In this document: in pieces, positions 2,827-12,441 of the stretch
How positions within the stretch are numbered: position 1 is the stretch's first letter
Layout of the letters: each line of letters opens with the position of its first letter
NCBI GenBank assembly: GCA_009845855.1
Contig: VXYT01000040.1
Location: forward strand, 24,367 to 88,366
DNA length: 64,000 bases
Direction of reading: 5' to 3'
Source of the DNA: Candidatus Palauibacter ramosifaciens
GTDB taxonomy: Bacteria; Gemmatimonadota; Gemmatimonadetes; Palauibacterales; Palauibacteraceae
Made by a program: the position numbers and the translations under genes
The notes under the pieces: generated by a model
Database searches by the model: none
The model's input: the letters and a program-made list of their open reading frames with translations, nothing else
What the model was told of the DNA's origin: nothing

Positions 2827-3257
2827 CCGCCGAGGAGCGGGCGGCCCGCCTCGAGGCGGTGCAGCCCGTGCTTCCCTCGCGGGACGTCGCCGCGGCGATC
2901 GGCTTCTACGTCGGACGGCTCGGCTTCGAACTCGCCTTCGCCGATTCGACGCGCGATCCGGGGTACGCCGGCGTGAGACGGGATGGGATCGAGTTGCACC
3001 TCCAGTGGCACGACGCCGAGGAGTGGTCCGGAGTCGAGCGGCCCATGCTCCGCTTCGTCGTGCCCGCGGTCGAGGACCTGTTCGAGGAATACCGGAACCT
3101 GGGGGTCTTCCACGAGCGCACGGCTCTGCGGCGGACCCCGTGGGGTACGCGCGAATTCGCCTTTTACGACCTCGACATGAACGGACTCACCTTCTACCGC
3201 GATCTCGCGGAGGACGAGACACCGGATCCGCCCGCGGACGAGGGCCTCTCCGACTGA
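2754..3257 (+). CDS. VOC/glyoxalase-bleomycin resistance family protein (true start probably near 2826-2850, non-ATG)
   Basis: C-terminal 140 aa have a glyoxalase-like fold signature (PSRDVAAAIGFYVGRLGFEL...); the ORF N-terminus overlaps the korB end. Confidence 0.5.
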   Translation: MEPPLRGAVSGSRRAGRPDGELPIAAEERAARLEAVQPVLPSRDVAAAIGFYVGRLGFELAFADSTRDPGYAGVRRDGIELHLQWHDAEEWSGVERPMLRFVVPAVEDLFEEYRNLGVFHERTALRRTPWGTREFAFYDLDMNGLTFYRDLAEDETPDPPADEGLSD

Positions 3258-3357
3258 CTGCGCGCTGATCGAAGGATAGGGCCGTCACACCGCAACCGCC
3301 CGAGCAGCGACGCACGATCTCGATCAATCATGGGAGTTCCACTACGCCTGCATCGGC

Positions 3358-5888: not shown

Positions 5889-8126
5889 CTAGCCTCCGGA
5901 CCGGCCTCGCGCGCGGGCGCCGCCGGTCGACCGCGAACTGCCGCCGGACCGGCGGACGGTGCCGCCGGACCGGGACCCGCCGCCGGATCGGCGGACCGCC
6001 CCGCCGGACCGGGACGCGCCGCCCGAACGGCTGACAGTGCCGCTCGACCTCGATGGCCCGGGGGGCCGCGCCGCCGGTCGCGATGACCGTGGGGCGGATG
6101 GCCGGGTCACGGGTCTCGTGGTGGACGGCGGGCGGCGAACGTCCGGCCGGGACGGCCTCGCCGCGGTGGGTCGCACGGGGGGCCTCGCCGGCACGGAGCG
6201 CACCGCCGGCCTCGCGGGATTCGACCTTGCCGTCGGCCGCGCCGTCGCGCCGCCCGTCCTCCGAACGGGCGGCGACTCCCGCGCCGTCCGCGGACGGACG
6301 ATCCGACGAACGCCCTCGTCGCCGGTCCGCGGGGCTGCGCGCTGTACGCCGCCGGAACCCGTCCGCGTCGCGGGTCGCACGGCCGGTCGTCTCGCGTCGT
6401 CGGGCACACCCCGCTCGCGCGCCGTGGGACGCCGGATCACCGGGCGAGCGCCGGTCCCCGATGCGGGCGGCGTTGCGCGCTGCACGCCGGATCGCTGCGT
6501 CGCCCGCTGCACACCGGGCCGCGCCGTCCTCGGCACGCCGGACCGCTCCGGCCGCAACGTACCGGCCTCCGGCGACCGTCTGGTCACCCGGACCGCCGGT
6601 GAGCCGGCCGTCCGCGAGGCACCGCTCGGCGCCCCGGCGGTCGCGTCGCGCGGGCGGGCCGACCGGCCATCGCGCCCTCGCAGCACGACGCGTTCGACCT
6701 CCCGCGGCAAGCCCGCGCCGCGATCGATGAAGCCGTCCGCATCGACCGCCGTTCTCCCGTCCCGCGAGACCGCGCGCCGCAGGCTCGCCAGCGTCTGCGC
6801 GGGTCGGCGCCGCGCCTCGCGCCCGAGCAGGCGGGAGTCCGTCAGCAGCACGCCGCGCTCGACCGCCTTCCGCCCGCGACCGAAGTCCGAACCGCCGACC
6901 GAGTAGAAGTGCTGTCGCCGGTGTCCGAGCCGGCCGTGCGGCAGGAATGTCCAGTGCCGATAGCGCCCGAAGCCGCCCCCGATGTGTCCGTAGACCCCGA
7001 AGTGGAAGCCCCAGCTGCTCCCGTAGTGGTTTCGGTAGTGGCGCCAGTAGTATCCCGAGGGAATCCAGCCCGCGTAGCTCGGGCCCCAGTACCAGTAGAC
7101 GTGCGCGACGGCGAAACGCCGGCCCGGGAACCAGACCCACCCCCAGCCGGGATCGAGGTCCCAGTACCCGTAGTGGTAGGGCACCCATCCCCATGGTTCG
7201 TACGAGACCCAGAACATTCCGCTGGGCGTGTGTCGCCAGCGCCCGTGCCGGTACGGAGCCCAGCCCGTTGAGACTCGCGGACGCCAGGCGACCCCCGCAT
7301 CGACGTGTACCCACGATCCGTGCCCGCGGAGCGAAGAGGCGGCGTAGTGGAGGTCCGGATCCAAATGGGCGGTGTACTCGCCGGACGCGTAGTCGCCGAC
7401 CCCCTGGCCCCACGCCTCCAGGCGATCGAGACCGGGGGCCGCCGCGAAGCGGAGCCGGTCCCCTCGCGCACCCTCGACGAAGAGGCTCTCCCCGCGGCGG
7501 ACCTCGGCGAGTTCCATCTCCGTCGTGACTTCCGCCACCCCCTCGCGCACGACGACCTCGCTCCGGCGCTCGTCGTCGACGACGATCAGGAAGGAACCGG
7601 CTCCCCGCGGCCGGATCGTCGCGTTAGGCGTGATGATGGAAGGCCACTCGGCCCCCGGTTGGTTCGGGGCCACCACGAGCTGCAGCGACCCGCGCGCGAT
7701 TTCGAGGATGGAGGCGGGATCGCTCGCATCCGCTGAGTTGGCGAGCGCGCGGAAGAGAAGCTCCGTCCGATCCCCGATCCGGACGAGGTTCCCGTCGGCG
7801 AGCGAAATCTCGATGCGGGATTCGCCGGACACGAAGATCCGGTCGCCGACGAGGACGGGCTCGTTCACCGCGAGCTGGATGCGATCCCGGGTGTCCCCCT
7901 GAATGAGCGTCGCTGACCCGTCCAGCGCCCGGAGGTATCCGTAGCTGCCGTCGATCCCGCTTTGCGCGACCGCGGCGTCATAATCGATCGGTGTCTCCGC
8001 CTCCTGGGCGGAGACCGGGGGCGCGACGAACGAGGTGCCCCACGCCACCCCGACCGCCCACACTCGCCGCCGGCCCCGCAACCACCGGGGCGCTCCGGAG
8101 TTTCCTCTCGCCTTTGCGAACCGCAT
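5889..8126 (-). CDS. FecR-domain secreted protein with W/Y/G-rich segment and basic RSGG/PR-rich C-terminal tail
   Basis: signal peptide (VAWGTSFVAPPVSAQ); FecR-like beta domain (aa 60-200); aromatic-rich aa 280-410; low-complexity tail with RSGG repeats; C-terminal extent uncertain. Confidence 0.5.
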   Translation of the reverse strand: MRFAKARGNSGAPRWLRGRRRVWAVGVAWGTSFVAPPVSAQEAETPIDYDAAVAQSGIDGSYGYLRALDGSATLIQGDTRDRIQLAVNEPVLVGDRIFVSGESRIEISLADGNLVRIGDRTELLFRALANSADASDPASILEIARGSLQLVVAPNQPGAEWPSIITPNATIRPRGAGSFLIVVDDERRSEVVVREGVAEVTTEMELAEVRRGESLFVEGARGDRLRFAAAPGLDRLEAWGQGVGDYASGEYTAHLDPDLHYAASSLRGHGSWVHVDAGVAWRPRVSTGWAPYRHGRWRHTPSGMFWVSYEPWGWVPYHYGYWDLDPGWGWVWFPGRRFAVAHVYWYWGPSYAGWIPSGYYWRHYRNHYGSSWGFHFGVYGHIGGGFGRYRHWTFLPHGRLGHRRQHFYSVGGSDFGRGRKAVERGVLLTDSRLLGREARRRPAQTLASLRRAVSRDGRTAVDADGFIDRGAGLPREVERVVLRGRDGRSARPRDATAGAPSGASRTAGSPAVRVTRRSPEAGTLRPERSGVPRTARPGVQRATQRSGVQRATPPASGTGARPVIRRPTARERGVPDDARRPAVRPATRTGSGGVQRAAPRTGDEGVRRIVRPRTARESPPVRRTGGATARPTARSNPARPAVRSVPARPPVRPTAARPSRPDVRRPPSTTRPVTRPSAPRSSRPAARPPGPSRSSGTVSRSGGASRSGGAVRRSGGGSRSGGTVRRSGGSSRSTGGARARGRSGG
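5930..6040 (-). repeat. tandem 12-20 nt GC-rich repeats (GCCGCCGGACCGG units) encoding the RSGG repeat tail
   Basis: visible direct repetition of ccgccggaccgg(g/c)... units on the + strand. Confidence 0.5.
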
Positions 8127-8250: not shown

Positions 8251-9402
8251 CTAGGGAAGGTCGTCGATCCACTCGGCGATGAAGATGTTTGTGTTGCCCA
8301 GGTGGGATCCGTGCCGGTTCGATCCGAACACGAGATGACGGCCGTCCGGGCTGAACATCGGGAAGCTCTCGAACTCGTCGCTGAACGTCACCTGCTCCAG
8401 GCCCGTGCCGTCCAGGTTCACGAGGAAGAGATCGAAATTGCGGCTGCGGGGATCGCCCTCGTGCAGGTTCGAAGCGAAGATCACCTTCTCGCCGCTCGGG
8501 TGGAAGAAGGGGGCGAAGTTCGCGGCCTCGTTGTCCGTGAGACGCACCCGGTTCGAGCCGTCCACATTCATCACGTAGATGTCGAGCACGCCCGGCCGGA
8601 CGAGACCATCGGCCAGGAGCGCCTGGTAGTCCGCGAGTTCCTCTTCGCTCTCCGGGTACCTCGCCCGGTAGACGATCTTCGATCCATCCGGGGAGAAGAA
8701 GGGCCCGCCATCGTATCCGAGTTCGTTCGTTATCTGCCGGACGTCGGAGCCGTCGGGATTCATCGTGTAGATGTCCAGATCTCCGTTGCGCGTGGAGGTG
8801 AAGACGATCCGCGACCCGTCCGGGGCGAGGGTCGCCTCCGCGTCGTAGCCGGGACTCGAGAAGATCGGCTGGACGTCGGAACCGTCCGGGTTCGCCGTGT
8901 AGATGTCGAAGTCGTGGAGCGGCCACACGTACCCACGCCGCATGTCGGGCGGCGGAGGGCACTCGGGCGACACGTGATGCGTGGAACTGTACACGATCCG
9001 CGAATCGTCCGGGAAGAAGTAGGAGCACGTGGTCCGGCCGAGCCCCGTCGAAACGAGCTTGGGGTCGCCGCCCTCGACGCCGATCGTGAAGATCTGGTCG
9101 CATTCGTACTCGCCCTCGTGGCGGCGCTGGAAGATCAGCCGCTCTCCGTCCGCCGAGTAGTAGGCCTCGGCGTTCTCTCCCTCGAAGGTGAGTTGAGTCA
9201 GGCTGGCGAAGCGCCGCTCGTCCGGGAGCGGATCGCGGCTCACGGCGGCGTTCTCCGCGATATTCTCCCCGCCGTTCCCGCTGGTCGCGGCATCGGTCTC
9301 CTCTCCGGCGTTACCGGCGCAGGCCGTCGCGACGAAGGCTGTCGCGAGCGCGGCCGCGATGCAGGTCGGGGACGATACGGGTCCGAACTGTGCTGATTTC
9401 AA
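8251..9402 (-). CDS. TolB-like PD40 beta-propeller lipoprotein
   Basis: lipoprotein-type signal (…ATAFVATAC); repeated F/YSPDGSxIVF PD40 motifs. Confidence 0.75.
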   Translation of the reverse strand: MKSAQFGPVSSPTCIAAALATAFVATACAGNAGEETDAATSGNGGENIAENAAVSRDPLPDERRFASLTQLTFEGENAEAYYSADGERLIFQRRHEGEYECDQIFTIGVEGGDPKLVSTGLGRTTCSYFFPDDSRIVYSSTHHVSPECPPPPDMRRGYVWPLHDFDIYTANPDGSDVQPIFSSPGYDAEATLAPDGSRIVFTSTRNGDLDIYTMNPDGSDVRQITNELGYDGGPFFSPDGSKIVYRARYPESEEELADYQALLADGLVRPGVLDIYVMNVDGSNRVRLTDNEAANFAPFFHPSGEKVIFASNLHEGDPRSRNFDLFLVNLDGTGLEQVTFSDEFESFPMFSPDGRHLVFGSNRHGSHLGNTNIFIAEWIDDLP

Positions 9403-9611
9403 GAGAGCCTCGGTTCTGCCGATTCGATGTTCAACGGCGCGCCGGCCGCCGCAGTGTTCTGCAGGCCCGGGCGAGCCGCGGGCTCACAGGGTACGATTCA
9501 CGCGCTCGCGCGGCCAGTTCAGGAGCGTCCCGCTTTCACGGTTTCCGCGACGATACGTTCTAAGGGACGAGAACGAGCGTTGGCGAGCGGGGAAAGGCGG
9601 AGCCGGGGCGC

Positions 9612-10154
9612 ATGACCACAGGGACGGAGTCGGCGCATCGGGTGCGGAGCTGGTCGGAGCGGTACGGCCCCGAATTGCAGCGCCACGTGGCTGCGATGCT
9701 GGGTAGCGCGGATGAGGCCCGGGACATCGTGCAGGACCTGTGGGTGACGGCGCTCCGTGCCCGGCCCGAGAGGGTGGACGGCGCCAACATCCGTGCCTGG
9801 CTGTACCGCGTCGCGACGCGGCGGGCTCTCGACCACCTGTCCGCCCGCCGCCGGCGCTCGGACTTGCTCGCGGCCCACTCCGACGAACTGGAGCCGGGCC
9901 CCCTTCCCCCGGCCGACGCGGCGCTGGGTAGGCTCTCCGAAGCCGCCGCGGCGCGCGTCCGGGAGGGTGTCGCGGAACTCCCCCGGCGGCAGCGGGACGC
10001 CGTCTGGCTGCGCTGGATCGAGCAGTTGGACTACCCGACGATCGCGCGCCGGATGGATGTCTCCCCCGAGGCCGCGAGAGCCAACGTCTACCACGGGATG
10101 AAGAAGCTGCGCCGCGACCTCGCCGAGGTGTGGCGCGAGGAGGGGCCGATATGA
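9612..10154 (+). CDS. RNA polymerase ECF-type sigma-70 factor
   Basis: region 2 (DIVQDLWVTALR) and region 4 (DYPTIARRMDVSPEAARANVYHGMKKLR) signatures; 180 aa. Confidence 0.85.
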   Translation: MTTGTESAHRVRSWSERYGPELQRHVAAMLGSADEARDIVQDLWVTALRARPERVDGANIRAWLYRVATRRALDHLSARRRRSDLLAAHSDELEPGPLPPADAALGRLSEAAAARVREGVAELPRRQRDAVWLRWIEQLDYPTIARRMDVSPEAARANVYHGMKKLRRDLAEVWREEGPI

Positions 10155-10858
10155 CCCGACGTTGCACGACCTGTCGCGAAGAAGACGTACTTGCCTGGGT
10201 CCTGGGCGACCCGGATGCGGATGCCGCTCCCGAGCTCGCCGAACGCATGGCGGCGTGCCCCGCCTGCCGGGAGCGCGCGGTGGAATACGGGTTGCTGCAT
10301 CTCTCGGCGGAGAGCCTCCGAGACGGCCCGGCGATCCGCTGGCGCCGCTTCGGTTCGCCCTTCGGCGCCATGCGCATCGCCGCGGGTACGGGCGGCCTGG
10401 TCGCGCTTTCGTGGCAGGACGAGAGCGACGATGCGTTCGTCGCCGGCCTCGAGCGCCGGTACCCGTCGACGCCGGTGGTGTGCGATACCGACCGACTCGT
10501 CGCAGCGGAAGAGCAACTGACGGAGTACTTCGGTCGCCGGCGCCCGCGCTTCGATCTCCTCGTCGATCTCACGGAACTGGGCGACTTCCAGCGCGCCGTG
10601 CTGGACGCCGCCTCCGGACTCGATTTCGGCGAGACGGTGACGTACACGGAGATCGCCCGGCGCATCGGACGTCCGAAAGCGTCGCGCGCGGTGGGCAACG
10701 CGCTCGGCCGGAACCCGATACCGATCATCGTGCCGTGTCACCGGGTCGTCCGGGCCGACCGGACGCTGGGGGGATACACCGGCGGACTCCGTTACAAGCG
10801 CACGCTCCTCGACATCGAGGGCCGCACCGACCTCCTCCGCCCGCCCGCGATCAGATGA
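10151..10858 (+). CDS. zf-HC2 anti-sigma domain fused to methylated-DNA--protein-cysteine methyltransferase (MGMT/Ogt, N- and C-domains)
   Basis: ATGA overlap with the sigma gene; N-terminus C-TT-C...AERMAACPACRE matches the zf-HC2 anti-sigma pattern; C-terminus has IPCHRVV alkyl-acceptor site and helix-turn-helix YTEIARRIGRP. Confidence 0.75.
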   Translation: MTRRCTTCREEDVLAWVLGDPDADAAPELAERMAACPACRERAVEYGLLHLSAESLRDGPAIRWRRFGSPFGAMRIAAGTGGLVALSWQDESDDAFVAGLERRYPSTPVVCDTDRLVAAEEQLTEYFGRRRPRFDLLVDLTELGDFQRAVLDAASGLDFGETVTYTEIARRIGRPKASRAVGNALGRNPIPIIVPCHRVVRADRTLGGYTGGLRYKRTLLDIEGRTDLLRPPAIR

Positions 10859-10861
10859 GAA

Positions 10862-11881
10862 TCAACCTTCTTCGGCGACGGTGAACCGCATGAGACTTCC
10901 CGGGAACATCAGCCAGGCCGTGCCGTCGTCCAGGATGCGGCTGCTCCACGCCGCCTGGCGCCGCTGCGGGTCGCGCCACAGCACGGTGGCCCGGCCGTCC
11001 TCCTCGTAGGGCAGAAATACCCCGTCCACCGGATCAATCGCCGGGACGAGCCACACCCCCCGCTCGCCGGCCCGCATTTCCTTGAACCCCGGCGCGCTGA
11101 CGCCGGGGCGGCCCGCGACGCGCCGCTCCGTCTCCGCGCGCGTGCTCTCGACCAGCCATTCGGGTACCGCGATGCGGGAGATGCGAACAATCCTGGACGG
11201 ATCGTACTCCAGCTCGATTCGCCACAGGATCGTCCGCACCCCGTCGAGAAGGATCACCTCGCCCTTCCGTCCAACCGACATCACGACATGCTGCGCGCTT
11301 ATTCGGTCGACCGGTCCAAACGCCAACTCCTCGGGAAGCGGAACTTCGTTCGGGATGTTCAGGGGCCCATCCGCCAACCCGTACGCTGCAAGCAGAAAAC
11401 CCGGCTGTGCGCTGAGCCCGATGGCGCCGAGGACATGGTCGACCCCGAATCCAACGGCGGTCGCCATCGTCGCTCCCGGAAGCCGCGCCGTCTGCGGCTC
11501 TCCGCCTCCGGAAGGAAAGTGTATGAGCGCTGCCCGCCCGGGATCGCCTACCCAGAGTGAGCCATCGGGCGCGAACTGGACGCGCCACGGGGATTCGAGG
11601 ATCTCGGGATCCCCCGGCCCCGGAGGGCCGCCCAAGGTCGCGATATGCTCCCCCGACGAGCGGAACAACTGGACCCGCCCCGCCATGCGGTCCGCAACCG
11701 CGACCGTGTCCCCGAACAGATCGAACCCGCGCGCCGACTCGATAAAGATGTCGTCCGAAAGGAGGCCTGCGGGCGGCAGCTCCTGCACCAGCTCCCTCAC
11801 CGCGACCTGCGTGCTCGAATCAACATCAAGCGAGCGGTCGGCGCCGCCATCGCCGCACGCCCAAGTCGTCAACGCCGCCAT
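10862..11881 (-). CDS. secreted/lipoprotein-like beta-propeller family protein (paralog of the 29837 gene); start uncertain
   Basis: signal-like RRRLALVAMAALTTWAC; QELP motif and overall similarity to the low-GC paralog; the only nearby ATG gives a short signal peptide. Confidence 0.5.
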   Translation of the reverse strand: MAALTTWACGDGGADRSLDVDSSTQVAVRELVQELPPAGLLSDDIFIESARGFDLFGDTVAVADRMAGRVQLFRSSGEHIATLGGPPGPGDPEILESPWRVQFAPDGSLWVGDPGRAALIHFPSGGGEPQTARLPGATMATAVGFGVDHVLGAIGLSAQPGFLLAAYGLADGPLNIPNEVPLPEELAFGPVDRISAQHVVMSVGRKGEVILLDGVRTILWRIELEYDPSRIVRISRIAVPEWLVESTRAETERRVAGRPGVSAPGFKEMRAGERGVWLVPAIDPVDGVFLPYEEDGRATVLWRDPQRRQAAWSSRILDDGTAWLMFPGSLMRFTVAEEG

Positions 11882-11937
11882 CGCGACGAGCGCGAGCCGC
11901 CGGCGGACGACCGACGCGCCTGCTCCCCCGATGCCAC

Positions 11938-12441
11938 TCAACAGTGGTTCAACGAGCAGGGGTCTGGAGCGGGACCCTGAATTCTGATTGCCGAATTGCA
12001 ACCGCTGCTCGTCGAAAAATTCATCGTCGAGCCGTCGTGCATCTCGTACCAGCAGGAACAGACCTCGCAGGTTACGAAGCCCCAGGGGTCCATCGGGACG
12101 TCCGCACAAACGCCAAACGTGCGGACGCCACTAGCGGGGTTATGGGGGCCGCCCGAGATGTACGGGGGACAGCCGCCTTGGGCGGTCGCCGCTCCGTTCA
12201 CGCCTGATGCCGCCTTCGCTTCGATCGCGGGCACGTCGCCGACCTCGTGCTCGTCCTCCTCCGCGTGGACGTGTCCCATCGGTACGAATGGGGTCAGCAT
12301 CGTGAGGAGGAGGCCTGCGGCCACCCCTCGCCGCAACCGTCCTGCACCGAAGACGACCGAGCGGGCCGCCAGTACCGCGAGTACTTCTCCGATTGGTGAG
12401 GCGCCGGATGCGATGAAGGGGAAGAGCTTGAAGCTGGACAT
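11938..12441 (-). CDS. small membrane-anchored Cys/His-rich protein of unknown function
   Basis: GGGAGG RBS 5 nt upstream of the ATG; two N-terminal hydrophobic segments; HVHAEEDEHE; C-terminal domain with 8 Cys (CPPY...CADVP...CEVCSCW...CNS...CSLNHC). Confidence 0.45.
   Translation of the reverse strand: MSSFKLFPFIASGASPIGEVLAVLAARSVVFGAGRLRRGVAAGLLLTMLTPFVPMGHVHAEEDEHEVGDVPAIEAKAASGVNGAATAQGGCPPYISGGPHNPASGVRTFGVCADVPMDPWGFVTCEVCSCWYEMHDGSTMNFSTSSGCNSAIRIQGPAPDPCSLNHC

What the first reader, a model, noticed from the sequence alone, without database searches (positions are those of the whole stretch)
9612..10858. ECF sigma factor paired with an anti-sigma zinc-finger fused to a complete O6-alkylguanine-DNA alkyltransferase
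The gene overlapping the ECF sigma stop (ATGA at 10151-10154) encodes an N-terminal zf-HC2 anti-sigma domain: a C-TT-C pair followed ~28 residues later by ...AERMAACPACRERAVEY, matching the C..C...HLxxCxxCR pattern of ZAS-type anti-sigma factors. Instead of a TM or periplasmic sensor, the rest is a full MGMT/Ogt: an N-terminal domain, a helix-turn-helix, and the IPCHRVV alkyl-acceptor cysteine. The sequence therefore points to a cytoplasmic sigma/anti-sigma switch whose sensor is a suicide DNA-repair enzyme. Irreversible alkyl transfer to the active-site Cys could release the sigma factor. That would be an Ada-like adaptive response wired through an ECF sigma. I do not recognise this architecture as characterised.
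Basis: partly seen in the sequence, partly recalled or inferred. Interest (0 to 1): 0.8.

Follow-up and report, generated by a model that had tools for sequence, protein, structure and literature searches.

The report
Anti-sigma factor fused to MGMT

Summary
An ECF sigma gene (9612-10154) overlaps by ATGA a 235-aa gene (10151-10858). That gene encodes a ~60-residue N-terminal anti-sigma domain followed by a full O6-alkylguanine-DNA alkyltransferase with every catalytic residue.

This protein itself gets no Pfam zf-HC2 hit, because the motif His is Arg and an extra Cys compensates. Orthologues, a family profile and the predicted fold all place the domain among class I/ZAS anti-sigma domains.

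The sigma-fusion pair, its 4-nt overlap and an ECF-type promoter (TTTCAC-N16-CGTT, 9534-9559) recur in ten other Gemmatimonadota loci. Sigma-coupled, N-terminally extended MGMTs also occur in Actinomycetota, Chloroflexota and Methylomirabilota. In Actinomycetota the sigma-type promoter also precedes a second Ogt and a DNA-dealkylating oxygenase.

Some close relatives have lost all zinc ligands but keep the MGMT site and the sigma coupling. This points to the MGMT domain, not the zinc site, as the sensor.

Best explanation (inferred, untested): alkyl transfer to Cys196 destabilises the anti-sigma factor, frees sigma, and re-induces the operon.

The only precedent I found is a survey remark that ECF122 sigmas neighbour MGMT genes, "mechanism unknown". 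I rate it a new variant of a known kind, interest about 0.7.

The parts
9534..9559 (+). ECF-type promoter TTTCAC-N16-CGTT, with -35 TTTCAC at 9534-9539 and -10 CGTT at 9556-9559, about 50 nt upstream of the sigma start codon
   Evidence: TTTCAC and CGTT are invariant columns in the alignment of seven upstream regions. This is the only match in the 64-kb window, where 0.07 are expected, and it is still the only match with one mismatch allowed. Each of nine related Gemmatimonadota loci scanned has exactly one match, upstream of its sigma gene; Longimicrobiales locus L007 has none. No sigma-70-type promoter is found in 9300-11200.
9612..10154 (+). ECF (group 4) sigma factor, 180 aa
   Evidence: Sigma70_r2 scores 7.3e-13 and Sigma70_r4_2 scores 8.2e-12. 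TIGR02937 scores 61.1 bits against a cut-off of 42.9. Orthologues lie directly upstream of the fusion gene in all ten related Gemmatimonadota loci examined.
10137..10154 (+). Translational coupling signal: Shine-Dalgarno-like GAGGAGGGG (10137-10145) and the ATGA start/stop overlap (10151-10154)
   Evidence: Read from the sequence. The ATGA overlap is present in all 8 Gemmatimonadota loci checked. The same 4-nt overlap occurs in 38 of 48 sigma-MGMT loci from other phyla.
10151..10333 (+). N-terminal anti-sigma domain (ZAS-like, residues 1-61). Predicted helices are 10-17, 26-35 and 37-58. Putative Cys4 zinc ligands are C5 (10163-10165), C8 (10172-10174), C36 (10256-10258) and C39 (10265-10267). 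Arg32 (10244-10246) replaces the canonical His.
10334..10567 (+). MGMT N-terminal (ribonuclease-like) domain, residues 62-139
10583..10822 (+). MGMT C-terminal DNA-binding and alkyl-acceptor domain, residues 145-224, with the PCHR motif. The acceptor Cys196 is at 10736-10738.
10151..10858 (+). Complete anti-sigma-MGMT fusion gene, 235 aa
   Evidence: It is a single ORF. An identical protein is deposited from a Gemmatimonadales MAG and annotated only as methylated-DNA--protein-cysteine methyltransferase. The AF2 model has mean pLDDT 89.6 and pTM 0.77.

Best explanation
The region 9534-10858 is a self-contained, autoregulated two-gene operon. It encodes an ECF sigma factor and its cognate soluble anti-sigma factor.

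The anti-sigma factor is a three-helix class I (ZAS-type) anti-sigma domain fused directly to a complete, catalytically competent O6-alkylguanine-DNA alkyltransferase (MGMT/Ogt).

Proposed cycle:
1. In unstressed cells the two proteins are made about 1:1 through translational coupling, and the fusion holds sigma inactive.
2. The MGMT domain repairs an O6-alkylguanine or O4-alkylthymine lesion and is irreversibly alkylated on Cys196.
3. As in other alkyltransferases, this perturbs the interface between the N- and C-terminal MGMT domains and destabilises the protein.
4. The anti-sigma domain is attached directly to the MGMT N-domain, so sigma is released, either by conformational change or by proteolysis of the spent protein.
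5. Free sigma transcribes from TTTCAC-N16-CGTT. This makes more sigma and fresh fusion protein, which both repairs DNA and re-sequesters sigma.

The result would be a demand-matched replenishment loop for a single-use enzyme. It is functionally analogous to the Ada adaptive response but uses negative logic: unmodified protein inhibits, whereas methylated Ada activates.

Shown here: gene structure, domain identities, conservation of the pair, its coupling and its promoter, and an intact catalytic site.

Inferred: sigma binding, alkylation as the releasing signal, autoregulation, and the fate of the alkylated protein.
For: Domains:
- Sigma regions 2 and 4.
- MGMT N and C domains with all catalytic residues invariant in 117/117 homologues.
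- N-terminus homologous to anti-sigma domains by family Pfam hits in 25/33 homologues, by profile search of the PDB, by exhaustive profile search and by fold.

Genetic linkage:
- The ATGA-type coupling is found in the window and nine other Gemmatimonadota loci, including homologues at about 50% identity. In Longimicrobiales L007 the fusion probably starts at a GTG 3 nt after the sigma stop.
- Flanking genes downstream vary, so the conserved unit is the pair.

Promoter: an ECF-type motif is invariant upstream of sigma. It is unique in the window and occurs once in each of nine related loci (none in L007).

Link to alkylation repair in other phyla:
- 52 of 79 high-scoring MGMT loci, mostly Actinomycetota, have an ECF sigma immediately upstream. 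In 38 of 48 the overlap is 4 nt.
- Their sigma-proximal motif CTCAC[AG]-N15/16-xCGT[CT] recurs in front of a stand-alone Ogt paralogue, which Pfam confirms in L008, L010, L020 and L057.
- The same motif precedes a PF09859 oxygenase for alkylated DNA in L050 (1.4e-81).
- Chloroflexota L019 and L056 carry zf-HC2 + MGMT fusions behind a sigma gene.
- In L058 and L070 the sigma partner is MGMT plus Ada_Zn_binding.

Sensor assignment: 13 close relatives and P0120 have lost every zinc ligand. They retain the full MGMT site, and one of them (P0031, locus L097) was checked and is still ATGA-coupled to sigma. The actinomycete partners have no Cys motif at all.

Literature:
- Groups that mix zinc and non-zinc anti-sigma domains are read as evidence that the zinc is structural (PMC7406223).
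Against: - No interaction, alkyl-transfer or induction data exist. A sigma + fusion co-fold could not be run.
- The window protein itself fails Pfam zf-HC2.
- Only three helices precede the MGMT fold. Canonical class I domains use a fourth helix for most sigma2 contacts (PMC7406223), so how sigma2 would be blocked is unknown.
- No target other than the operon's own promoter was found in 64 kb or in the flanks of related loci. A wider repair regulon in Gemmatimonadota is therefore unproven.
- Degradation of alkylated alkyltransferase has not been established in bacteria. PMC10779285 says the extent in other organisms is not established.
- The actinomycete N-terminal extension is not detectably homologous to the ZAS domain. 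Evidence from that phylum supports the theme, not this exact mechanism.
Confidence: 0.55

Rival explanations
1. The zinc-thiolate site of the ZAS domain is the sensor, as in RsrA. Oxidants or electrophiles, including methylating agents attacking the zinc-bound cysteines directly, would eject zinc and release sigma. The MGMT domain would be a co-delivered effector, not the sensor.
For: Most family members have the canonical C...H-x3-C-x2-C motif, and the window clade keeps four Cys through a compensating change. Soluble anti-sigma domains are enriched for zinc motifs and often sense redox state (PMC7406223). From general knowledge, zinc-thiolates are good methyl acceptors, as in N-Ada Cys38. 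In L058 and L070 an Ada_Zn_binding domain accompanies the MGMT.
Against: Thirteen relatives at 81-84% identity and P0120 have lost all ligands. They retain the domain, and the one checked (L097) keeps the sigma coupling. Actinomycete sigma-coupled MGMTs have no Cys motif. Mixed zinc and non-zinc groups are interpreted as having structural zinc (PMC7406223). This rival does not explain why MGMT is the one constant partner across phyla.
Confidence: 0.15
2. The fusion is an anti-sigma factor that senses nothing. It gives constitutive negative feedback that fixes the sigma:MGMT ratio, and induction comes from elsewhere, for example transcription of the operon by another regulator or general proteolysis.
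For: Only the operon's own promoter carries the motif. Many ECF systems are controlled transcriptionally (PMC8999054).
Against: No sigma-70-type promoter is detectable upstream. This rival does not explain the independent recruitment of different N-terminal modules onto MGMT next to sigma genes in at least four phyla. It also does not explain the absolute conservation of the suicide site.
Confidence: 0.15
3. It is an ordinary Ogt with a lineage-specific N-terminal zinc-binding extension, for example for stability or DNA binding, as currently annotated. The sigma adjacency would have no regulatory meaning.
For: Public records name it only methylated-DNA--protein-cysteine methyltransferase. Human AGT has a structural zinc site in its N-terminal domain (general knowledge). 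The window protein gets no zf-HC2 hit.
Against: The N-terminus matches anti-sigma domains specifically, by profile and by fold. The 4-nt translational coupling to an ECF sigma is conserved from about 50% to 90% identity and across phyla. An ECF promoter is conserved upstream.
Confidence: 0.05

Closest known systems
ECF122 group of ECF sigma factors (Casas-Pastor et al. 2021, as summarised in PMC8999054; example WP_057211282.1, Cellulomonas sp. Root930)
   Same: An ECF sigma with a 6-O-methylguanine DNA methyltransferase conserved in its neighbourhood. The actinomycete loci found here show the same sigma-ATGA-MGMT arrangement and a related promoter, TCAC ... CGT.
   Different: ECF122 is listed as lacking an anti-sigma factor and as having an unknown mechanism. 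The actinomycete partners carry only a 25-45-aa helical extension (LxRLHxRLxxxA) with no Cys motif, and it does not align to the ZAS domain. The window protein has a recognisable anti-sigma domain, which supplies the missing physical link. Whether the window sigma falls in ECF122 by sequence could not be tested.
ZAS / class I anti-sigma factors with their ECF sigmas (RsrA-SigR, RslA-SigL, ChrR-SigE, RsiW-SigW)
   Same: An N-terminal helical bundle with a C...H-x3-C-x2-C zinc motif in the family consensus. The gene lies immediately downstream of its sigma and is co-transcribed with it. The protein is soluble, like RsrA and ChrR. ChrR is the nearest architectural analogue: an anti-sigma domain plus a C-terminal cytoplasmic sensor domain (a cupin).
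   Different: The C-terminal partner is a suicide DNA-repair enzyme. Only three helices are present before the partner domain, so helix 4 is not evident. In the window protein His is replaced by Arg with an added Cys. Zinc ligands are dispensable in close relatives.
Ada adaptive response (E. coli Ada)
   Different: There is no N-Ada zinc methylphosphotriester domain and no AraC helix-turn-helix (no hits). The output runs through sequestration and release of a sigma factor rather than activation of a DNA-binding activator. The proposed signal is the O6-alkylguanine site (Cys196), not the phosphotriester site.
Ogt/MGMT O6-alkylguanine-DNA alkyltransferases (M. tuberculosis OGT 4bhb/4wxd, human AGT 1eh6)
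   Same: A two-domain fold, the PCHR acceptor site, the Arg finger, the Asn hinge, and the Tyr and Glu of the catalytic network.
   Different: A 61-residue anti-sigma domain is fused at the N-terminus, and the gene is translationally coupled to a sigma factor. A 2023 review of the AGT family lists endonuclease V and histone-like fusions but no sigma-linked form (PMC10779285).

Membership tests
ECF (group 4) sigma-70 factors | Only regions sigma2 and sigma4, about 170-200 aa, scoring above the family cut-off | tested here: met
   Sigma70_r2 7.3e-13 and Sigma70_r4_2 8.2e-12. TIGR02937 scores 61.1 bits against a cut-off of 42.9. The protein is 180 aa.
ZAS / zf-HC2 class I anti-sigma domain | H-x3-C-x2-C motif plus an upstream Cys/His ligand | tested here: not met
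   The window protein has R32-x3-C36-x2-C39 with C5 and C8, so the literal motif is absent. The family consensus is H-x3-C-x2-C. Arg32 always co-occurs with the extra Cys8 (10/10), consistent with a Cys4 site.
ZAS / zf-HC2 class I anti-sigma domain | Significant match to Pfam PF13490 | tested here: not met
   There is no hit for the window protein, even at E<=10 on residues 1-61. The feature is met by relatives: 25/33 at E<=0.1 (best 3.3e-7), the P0040 N-terminus at 23.9 bits and the L007 fusion at 29.2 bits, against a gathering score of 22.2.
ZAS / zf-HC2 class I anti-sigma domain | Homology and fold of the three-helix sigma4-binding bundle | tested here: met
ZAS / zf-HC2 class I anti-sigma domain | Fourth helix that binds sigma2 | tested here: inconclusive
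   The AF2 model shows helices 10-17, 26-35 and 37-58, and then the MGMT beta-sheet starts at residue 62. No separate helix 4 is seen. The MGMT N-domain or the end of helix 3 may substitute for it.
ZAS / zf-HC2 class I anti-sigma domain | Encoded next to, and co-transcribed with, an ECF sigma | tested here: met
   The ATGA overlap is present here and in nine other Gemmatimonadota loci, and in L007 the fusion start lies 3 nt after the sigma stop.
ZAS / zf-HC2 class I anti-sigma domain | Binds and inhibits its sigma | not testable with these tools
This needs two-hybrid, pull-down or in vitro transcription experiments.
O6-alkylguanine-DNA alkyltransferase (Ogt/MGMT/Ada-C) | PCHR acceptor motif, Arg finger, Asn hinge, Tyr/Glu catalytic network | tested here: met
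   Y165, R179, N188, P195-C196-H197-R198, Y209 and E223 are present, and all except P195 were tallied as invariant in 117/117 homologues (P195 is invariant in the 33-sequence alignment).
O6-alkylguanine-DNA alkyltransferase (Ogt/MGMT/Ada-C) | Two-domain fold (ribonuclease-like N domain plus helix-turn-helix C domain) | tested here: met
O6-alkylguanine-DNA alkyltransferase (Ogt/MGMT/Ada-C) | Stoichiometric alkyl transfer from DNA | not testable with these tools
   This needs a biochemical assay.
ECF122 | MGMT gene conserved in the sigma's neighbourhood | tested here: met
   MGMT lies directly downstream at position +1 here and in all related loci.
ECF122 | Sigma sequence assigned to the group by the ECF classification models | not testable with these tools
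   The ECF Hub models and the paper's supplement are not available. phmmer similarity to MGMT-linked actinomycete sigmas (1e-10 to 1e-20) is no better than to an unlinked ECF in L021 (7e-10). The promoters are similar: TTTCAC-N16-CGTT against CTCAC-N17-CGTC.
Ada (bifunctional regulator/methyltransferase) | N-terminal Zn(Cys)4 methylphosphotriester domain (PF02805) and AraC-type helix-turn-helix | tested here: not met
   The window protein matches neither domain. NF011964 matches only its C-terminal half and scores far below the cut-off, 84.9 against 345.

The most novel reading that the evidence does not exclude
A suicide DNA-repair enzyme acts as the consumable anti-sigma factor of its own operon. 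Each repaired O6-alkylguanine would irreversibly use up one inhibitor molecule and free one sigma molecule. Transcription would then count lesions stoichiometrically and replace exactly the enzyme that was consumed. This would be an Ada-independent adaptive response to alkylation. It appears to have been assembled repeatedly from an ECF sigma and MGMT with different N-terminal adaptor modules: a ZAS domain in Gemmatimonadota and Chloroflexota, a short helix in Actinomycetota (ECF122), and MGMT plus the Ada zinc domain in Methylomirabilota-type genomes. It would also explain the unknown mechanism of ECF122.
Probability: 0.45. Interest if true: 0.85.

Novelty: new variant of a known kind. Interest (0 to 1): 0.72.

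Why it matters
The only well-understood bacterial adaptive response to alkylation is Ada, in which a methylated repair protein becomes an activator.

A sigma/anti-sigma version would be a second, mechanistically distinct way to turn an irreversible repair event into gene expression. It would also be the first anti-sigma factor whose input is a covalent modification acquired while repairing DNA.

It would give a concrete, testable mechanism for an ECF group (ECF122) now listed as "no anti-sigma factor, mechanism unknown". That matters for many Actinomycetota, including environmental mycobacteria, Rhodococcus, Amycolatopsis and Streptosporangium.

MGMT reacts specifically and irreversibly with O6-benzylguanine derivatives (the SNAP-tag chemistry). 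A sigma factor released by that reaction could therefore serve as an orthogonal, small-molecule-triggered transcription switch.

The H-to-R plus added-Cys swap, and the zinc-free sister clade, also offer a natural experiment on whether zinc in anti-sigma domains is structural or sensory.

Tried and rejected
1. Pfam on the window protein and on residues 1-61 alone gave no zf-HC2 hit. I did not treat this as refuting the domain, because orthologues, profile searches and the fold all agree on it.

2. Scanning genome contigs with the N-terminal alignment A3 failed, because no stretch was conserved enough. The full-length alignment A1 was used instead. It returned mostly plain or actinomycete MGMTs, which turned out to be informative.

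No complex model exists.

4. hhalign of the Gemmatimonadota fusions against the actinomycete sigma-coupled MGMTs aligned only the MGMT part. I therefore rejected the idea that the actinomycete N-terminal helix is a remnant of the ZAS domain.

5. I looked for further regulon members with the promoter motif in the window, with 0 and 1 mismatch, and in about 12-kb flanks of related loci. Only the operon's own promoter was found. A scan of metagenome contigs with the motif was not run: it has too few specified bases, so chance matches would dominate.

6. Literature searches for ECF or anti-sigma together with methylguanine, alkyltransferase or alkylating agents found only the ECF122 remark. The supplement of the ECF classification paper is not held. 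The main text of that paper and its preprint do not mention MGMT.

7. I considered whether the upstream FecR-domain protein (5889-8126, minus strand) might be the sigma's real regulator. I rejected this: the protein begins with a signal-peptide-like sequence, then FecR and DUF6600, with no N-terminal anti-sigma domain, and it is absent from locus L001, which still has the pair.

8. The GTG at 10130 was considered as the fusion's start. I rejected it in favour of ATG 10151, which has a Shine-Dalgarno-like run and matches the conserved MT... N-terminus of homologues.
Full report
**1. What is in the sequence**

- Two same-strand ORFs fill 9612-10858.
- The first (9612-10154, 180 aa) has sigma-70 regions 2 and 4 only. 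It passes the ECF superfamily model TIGR02937 (61.1 bits, cut-off 42.9).
- The second starts at ATG 10151, inside the ATGA that ends the sigma gene, and runs to 10858 (235 aa). A GAGGAGGGG run lies 5 nt upstream of that ATG.
- Pfam and NCBIfam find a complete alkyltransferase: DNA_binding_1 at 8.7e-32 (residues 145-224), TIGR00589 ogt at 108 bits, and a weak Methyltransf_1N match at residues 63-139.
- An identical protein is deposited from a Gemmatimonadales MAG. It and its relatives (Candidatus Palauibacter and other Gemmatimonadota) are annotated only as methylated-DNA--protein-cysteine methyltransferase.

**2. Is the N-terminus an anti-sigma domain?**

There is no zf-HC2 hit, even for residues 1-61 at E<=10.

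The family resolves the question.
- In an alignment of 33 homologues at 48-87% identity, the consensus is C...VLAWVLGD...LAEHLAxCPxCRERAxEY. This is the canonical H-x3-C-x2-C with an upstream Cys.
- 25 of the 33 hit PF13490, best 3.3e-7.
- The N-terminus of a 69%-identical orthologue scores 23.9 bits, above the gathering score.
- A 61-position profile of the domain finds, as its six best PDB matches, RslA (4.8e-5), DdvA, ChrR twice, a CHAT-domain protein and RsiW.
- The same kind of profile was run against 1.84 billion representative proteins. After the family itself, it finds proteins that are zf-HC2 anti-sigma factors in 8 of 8 cases tested.
- The AlphaFold model (pLDDT 89.6, pTM 0.77) has three helices (10-17, 26-35, 37-58) before the MGMT sheet starts at residue 62.

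In the window protein and its nearest relatives the His is Arg32 and a second Cys appears at position 8. Arg32 is accompanied by Cys8 in 10 of 10 sequences. This is the pattern expected for a ligand swap to a Cys4 site.

**3. Is the MGMT part functional?**

- Y165, R179, N188, C196-H197-R198, Y209 and E223 correspond to the lesion-binding Tyr, Arg finger, Asn hinge, acceptor motif, and the Tyr and Glu of the catalytic network in M. tuberculosis OGT and human AGT.
- All are invariant in 117 of 117 homologues.
- Nothing suggests a degenerate, ATL-like domain.

**4. Conservation of the unit**

- The sigma gene directly precedes the fusion in ten other Gemmatimonadota loci, spanning about 46-90% identity.
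- Nine of the ten, like the window, have the 4-nt start/stop overlap. In the Longimicrobiales locus L007 the fusion probably starts at a GTG 3 nt after the sigma stop.
- Downstream genes differ and are mostly convergent, so the operon is just these two genes.
- Alignment of the upstream regions shows two invariant blocks, TTTCAC and CGTT, 16 nt apart. This is the layout of an ECF promoter.
- In the window the motif lies at 9534-9559. It is the only match in 64 kb (0.07 expected), and still the only match with one mismatch allowed.
- Each of the nine related loci scanned with this motif has exactly one match, upstream of its sigma gene; L007 has none.
- No sigma-70-type promoter is detectable nearby.
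- Autoregulation is therefore likely, though inferred.

**5. The wider picture**

A scan of one genome per species with the MGMT motifs returned 80 loci.
- In 52 of the 79 that are not close relatives, mostly Actinomycetota, an ECF sigma ORF lies immediately upstream.
- In 38 of 48 with an assignable start, the MGMT start overlaps the sigma stop by 4 nt.
- These partners carry a 25-45-aa N-terminal extension with the motif LxRLHxRLxxxA and no Cys pair. It does not align to the ZAS domain in a profile-profile comparison.
- This matches the published remark that ECF122 sigmas have conserved 6-O-methylguanine DNA methyltransferase neighbours, no anti-sigma factor and an unknown mechanism (PMC8999054).
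- Their sigma genes are preceded, often leaderlessly, by CTCAC[AG]-N15/16-xCGT[CT].
- The same motif recurs about 0.5 kb upstream in front of a second, unextended Ogt paralogue. By N-terminal sequence this is seen in about 14 loci, and Pfam confirms it in L008, L010, L020 and L057.
- In L050 the motif precedes a PF09859 "oxygenase catalysing oxidative demethylation of damaged DNA" (1.4e-81), and in L020 a SnoaL protein.
- Chloroflexota loci L019 and L056 have zf-HC2 + Methyltransf_1N + DNA_binding_1 fusions behind a sigma gene.
- In L058 and L070 (Methylomirabilota and Rokuibacteriota) the sigma partner is an extended MGMT C-domain followed by Ada's zinc methyl-acceptor domain.

Across at least four phyla, then, the constant partner of this kind of sigma is an alkyl-acceptor protein. 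Where the regulon can be glimpsed, it is alkylation repair.

**6. Which part senses?**

- Thirteen relatives at 81-84% identity to the window protein, and P0120, have lost every zinc ligand. They keep the rest of the N-terminal helices and the whole MGMT site.
- One of them was checked and is still ATGA-coupled to its sigma gene (L097).
- Mixed zinc and non-zinc groups of anti-sigma domains have been interpreted as having structural zinc (PMC7406223).
- Together with the Cys-free actinomycete partners, this argues that the zinc site is not the general signal input. That leaves the MGMT domain.
- Published structures and mutants show that alkylation of the active-site Cys disrupts the connection between the N- and C-terminal domains. 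It destabilises AGTs and leads to degradation in human, yeast and archaeal cells (PMC4605297, PMC10779285).
- Here the anti-sigma helices are joined directly to the MGMT N-domain, with no linker.
- The canonical fourth, sigma2-binding helix (PMC7406223) is not evident. The MGMT body may itself help occlude sigma. That last step is speculation.

**7. Mechanism proposed**

1. Sigma and fusion are made 1:1, and the fusion holds sigma inactive.
2. Alkyl transfer to Cys196 destabilises the fusion.
3. Sigma is released.
4. Transcription from TTTCAC-N16-CGTT makes more sigma and fresh MGMT/anti-sigma protein.
5. The system shuts off when unalkylated protein again exceeds sigma.

This is Ada-like in purpose and opposite in logic. 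The anatomy and its conservation are shown. Binding, release, autoregulation and proteolysis are inferred. My confidence is about 0.85 that this is a sigma/anti-sigma pair and about 0.55 for the full mechanism.

**8. Rivals**

- The zinc site is the sensor and MGMT is cargo (0.15).
- The fusion is a non-sensing feedback brake (0.15).
- It is an ordinary Ogt with an unrelated extension (0.05).

The evidence for and against each is given in the rival-explanations section of this report.

**9. Novelty**

- Searches of the held literature found no experimental or structural work on any sigma-linked MGMT.
- A 2023 review of the alkyltransferase family lists endonuclease V and histone-like fusions but nothing involving sigma factors.
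- The neighbourhood association was recorded for ECF122. The ZAS-MGMT fusion, the shared promoter logic, the second-Ogt and oxygenase targets, and the zinc-free sister clade are, as far as I could find, undescribed.
- I file it as a new variant of a known kind (ECF sigma with a class I anti-sigma factor), using an unprecedented sensor module.

**10. Limits**

- All homologues of the ZAS form come from metagenome-assembled genomes.
- No complex model could be computed.
- ECF122 membership of this sigma could not be tested.
- The Gemmatimonadota regulon beyond the operon is unknown.

Noticed in passing
L008 3832-4424; L020 2917-3527; L010 3772-4363 (-); L057 3418-4058; also L009, L014, L015, L026, L030, L060, L066, L067, L078, L079: In Actinomycetota, a second, unextended Ogt paralogue lies about 0.5 kb upstream of the sigma-MGMT pair. 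It is preceded by the same CTCAC[AG]-N15/16-xCGT[CT] motif as the sigma gene. The module there is P-ogt, then P-sigma-MGMT(extended).
   Followed up: partly
L050 5808-6555; L020 3545-4074: Further copies of the actinomycete promoter motif precede a PF09859 oxygenase for alkylated DNA (Amycolatopsis, 1.4e-81) and a SnoaL-like protein.
   Followed up: partly
L058 4345-5522; L070 4298-5477: In Methylomirabilota and Rokuibacteriota MAGs an ECF sigma is followed by a 235-aa protein. It has an N-terminal extension (~100 residues before the first Pfam match; its start looks helical), an MGMT C-domain and a C-terminal Ada_Zn_binding domain (PF02805). This is a different domain order from Ada, and it has no AraC helix-turn-helix.
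   Followed up: partly
P0014-P0034 (13 proteins), P0120; locus L097 3001-3723: A sister clade at 81-84% identity to the window protein has replaced every zinc-ligand residue of the anti-sigma domain (for example AEDLAASPDLRERA). The helices and the MGMT site are unchanged, and in the one member checked (L097) so is the sigma coupling.
   Followed up: yes
window 5889-8126 (-): A 745-aa protein with a signal-peptide-like start, a FecR domain and DUF6600, and a long Arg/Pro/Ser/Gly-rich repetitive tail (...RSGGGSRSGGTVRRSGG...). It is syntenic with the sigma operon in most Palauibacter-type loci but absent from L001. It lacks an N-terminal anti-sigma domain.
   Followed up: partly
window 8251-9402 (-): A PD40/TolB-like beta-propeller protein (4 PD40 repeats, 4e-46) is transcribed divergently from the sigma gene. 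This neighbour is conserved in nine of the ten related Gemmatimonadota loci (those whose upstream gene calls are on record). The shared 209-bp intergenic region holds the ECF promoter on the sigma side only.
   Followed up: partly
window 10862-12109 (-): A 415-aa ORF with no Pfam match converges on the fusion gene. Its stop codon lies 3 nt from the fusion's stop, and no terminator-like hairpin lies between them.
   Followed up: no
L001 3065-3345: In this more distant locus the conserved promoter lies about 255-480 nt upstream of the sigma start, depending on which start is real. A 45-aa called ORF (3155-3292) sits in between, so there may be a long leader or a small upstream gene.
   Followed up: no
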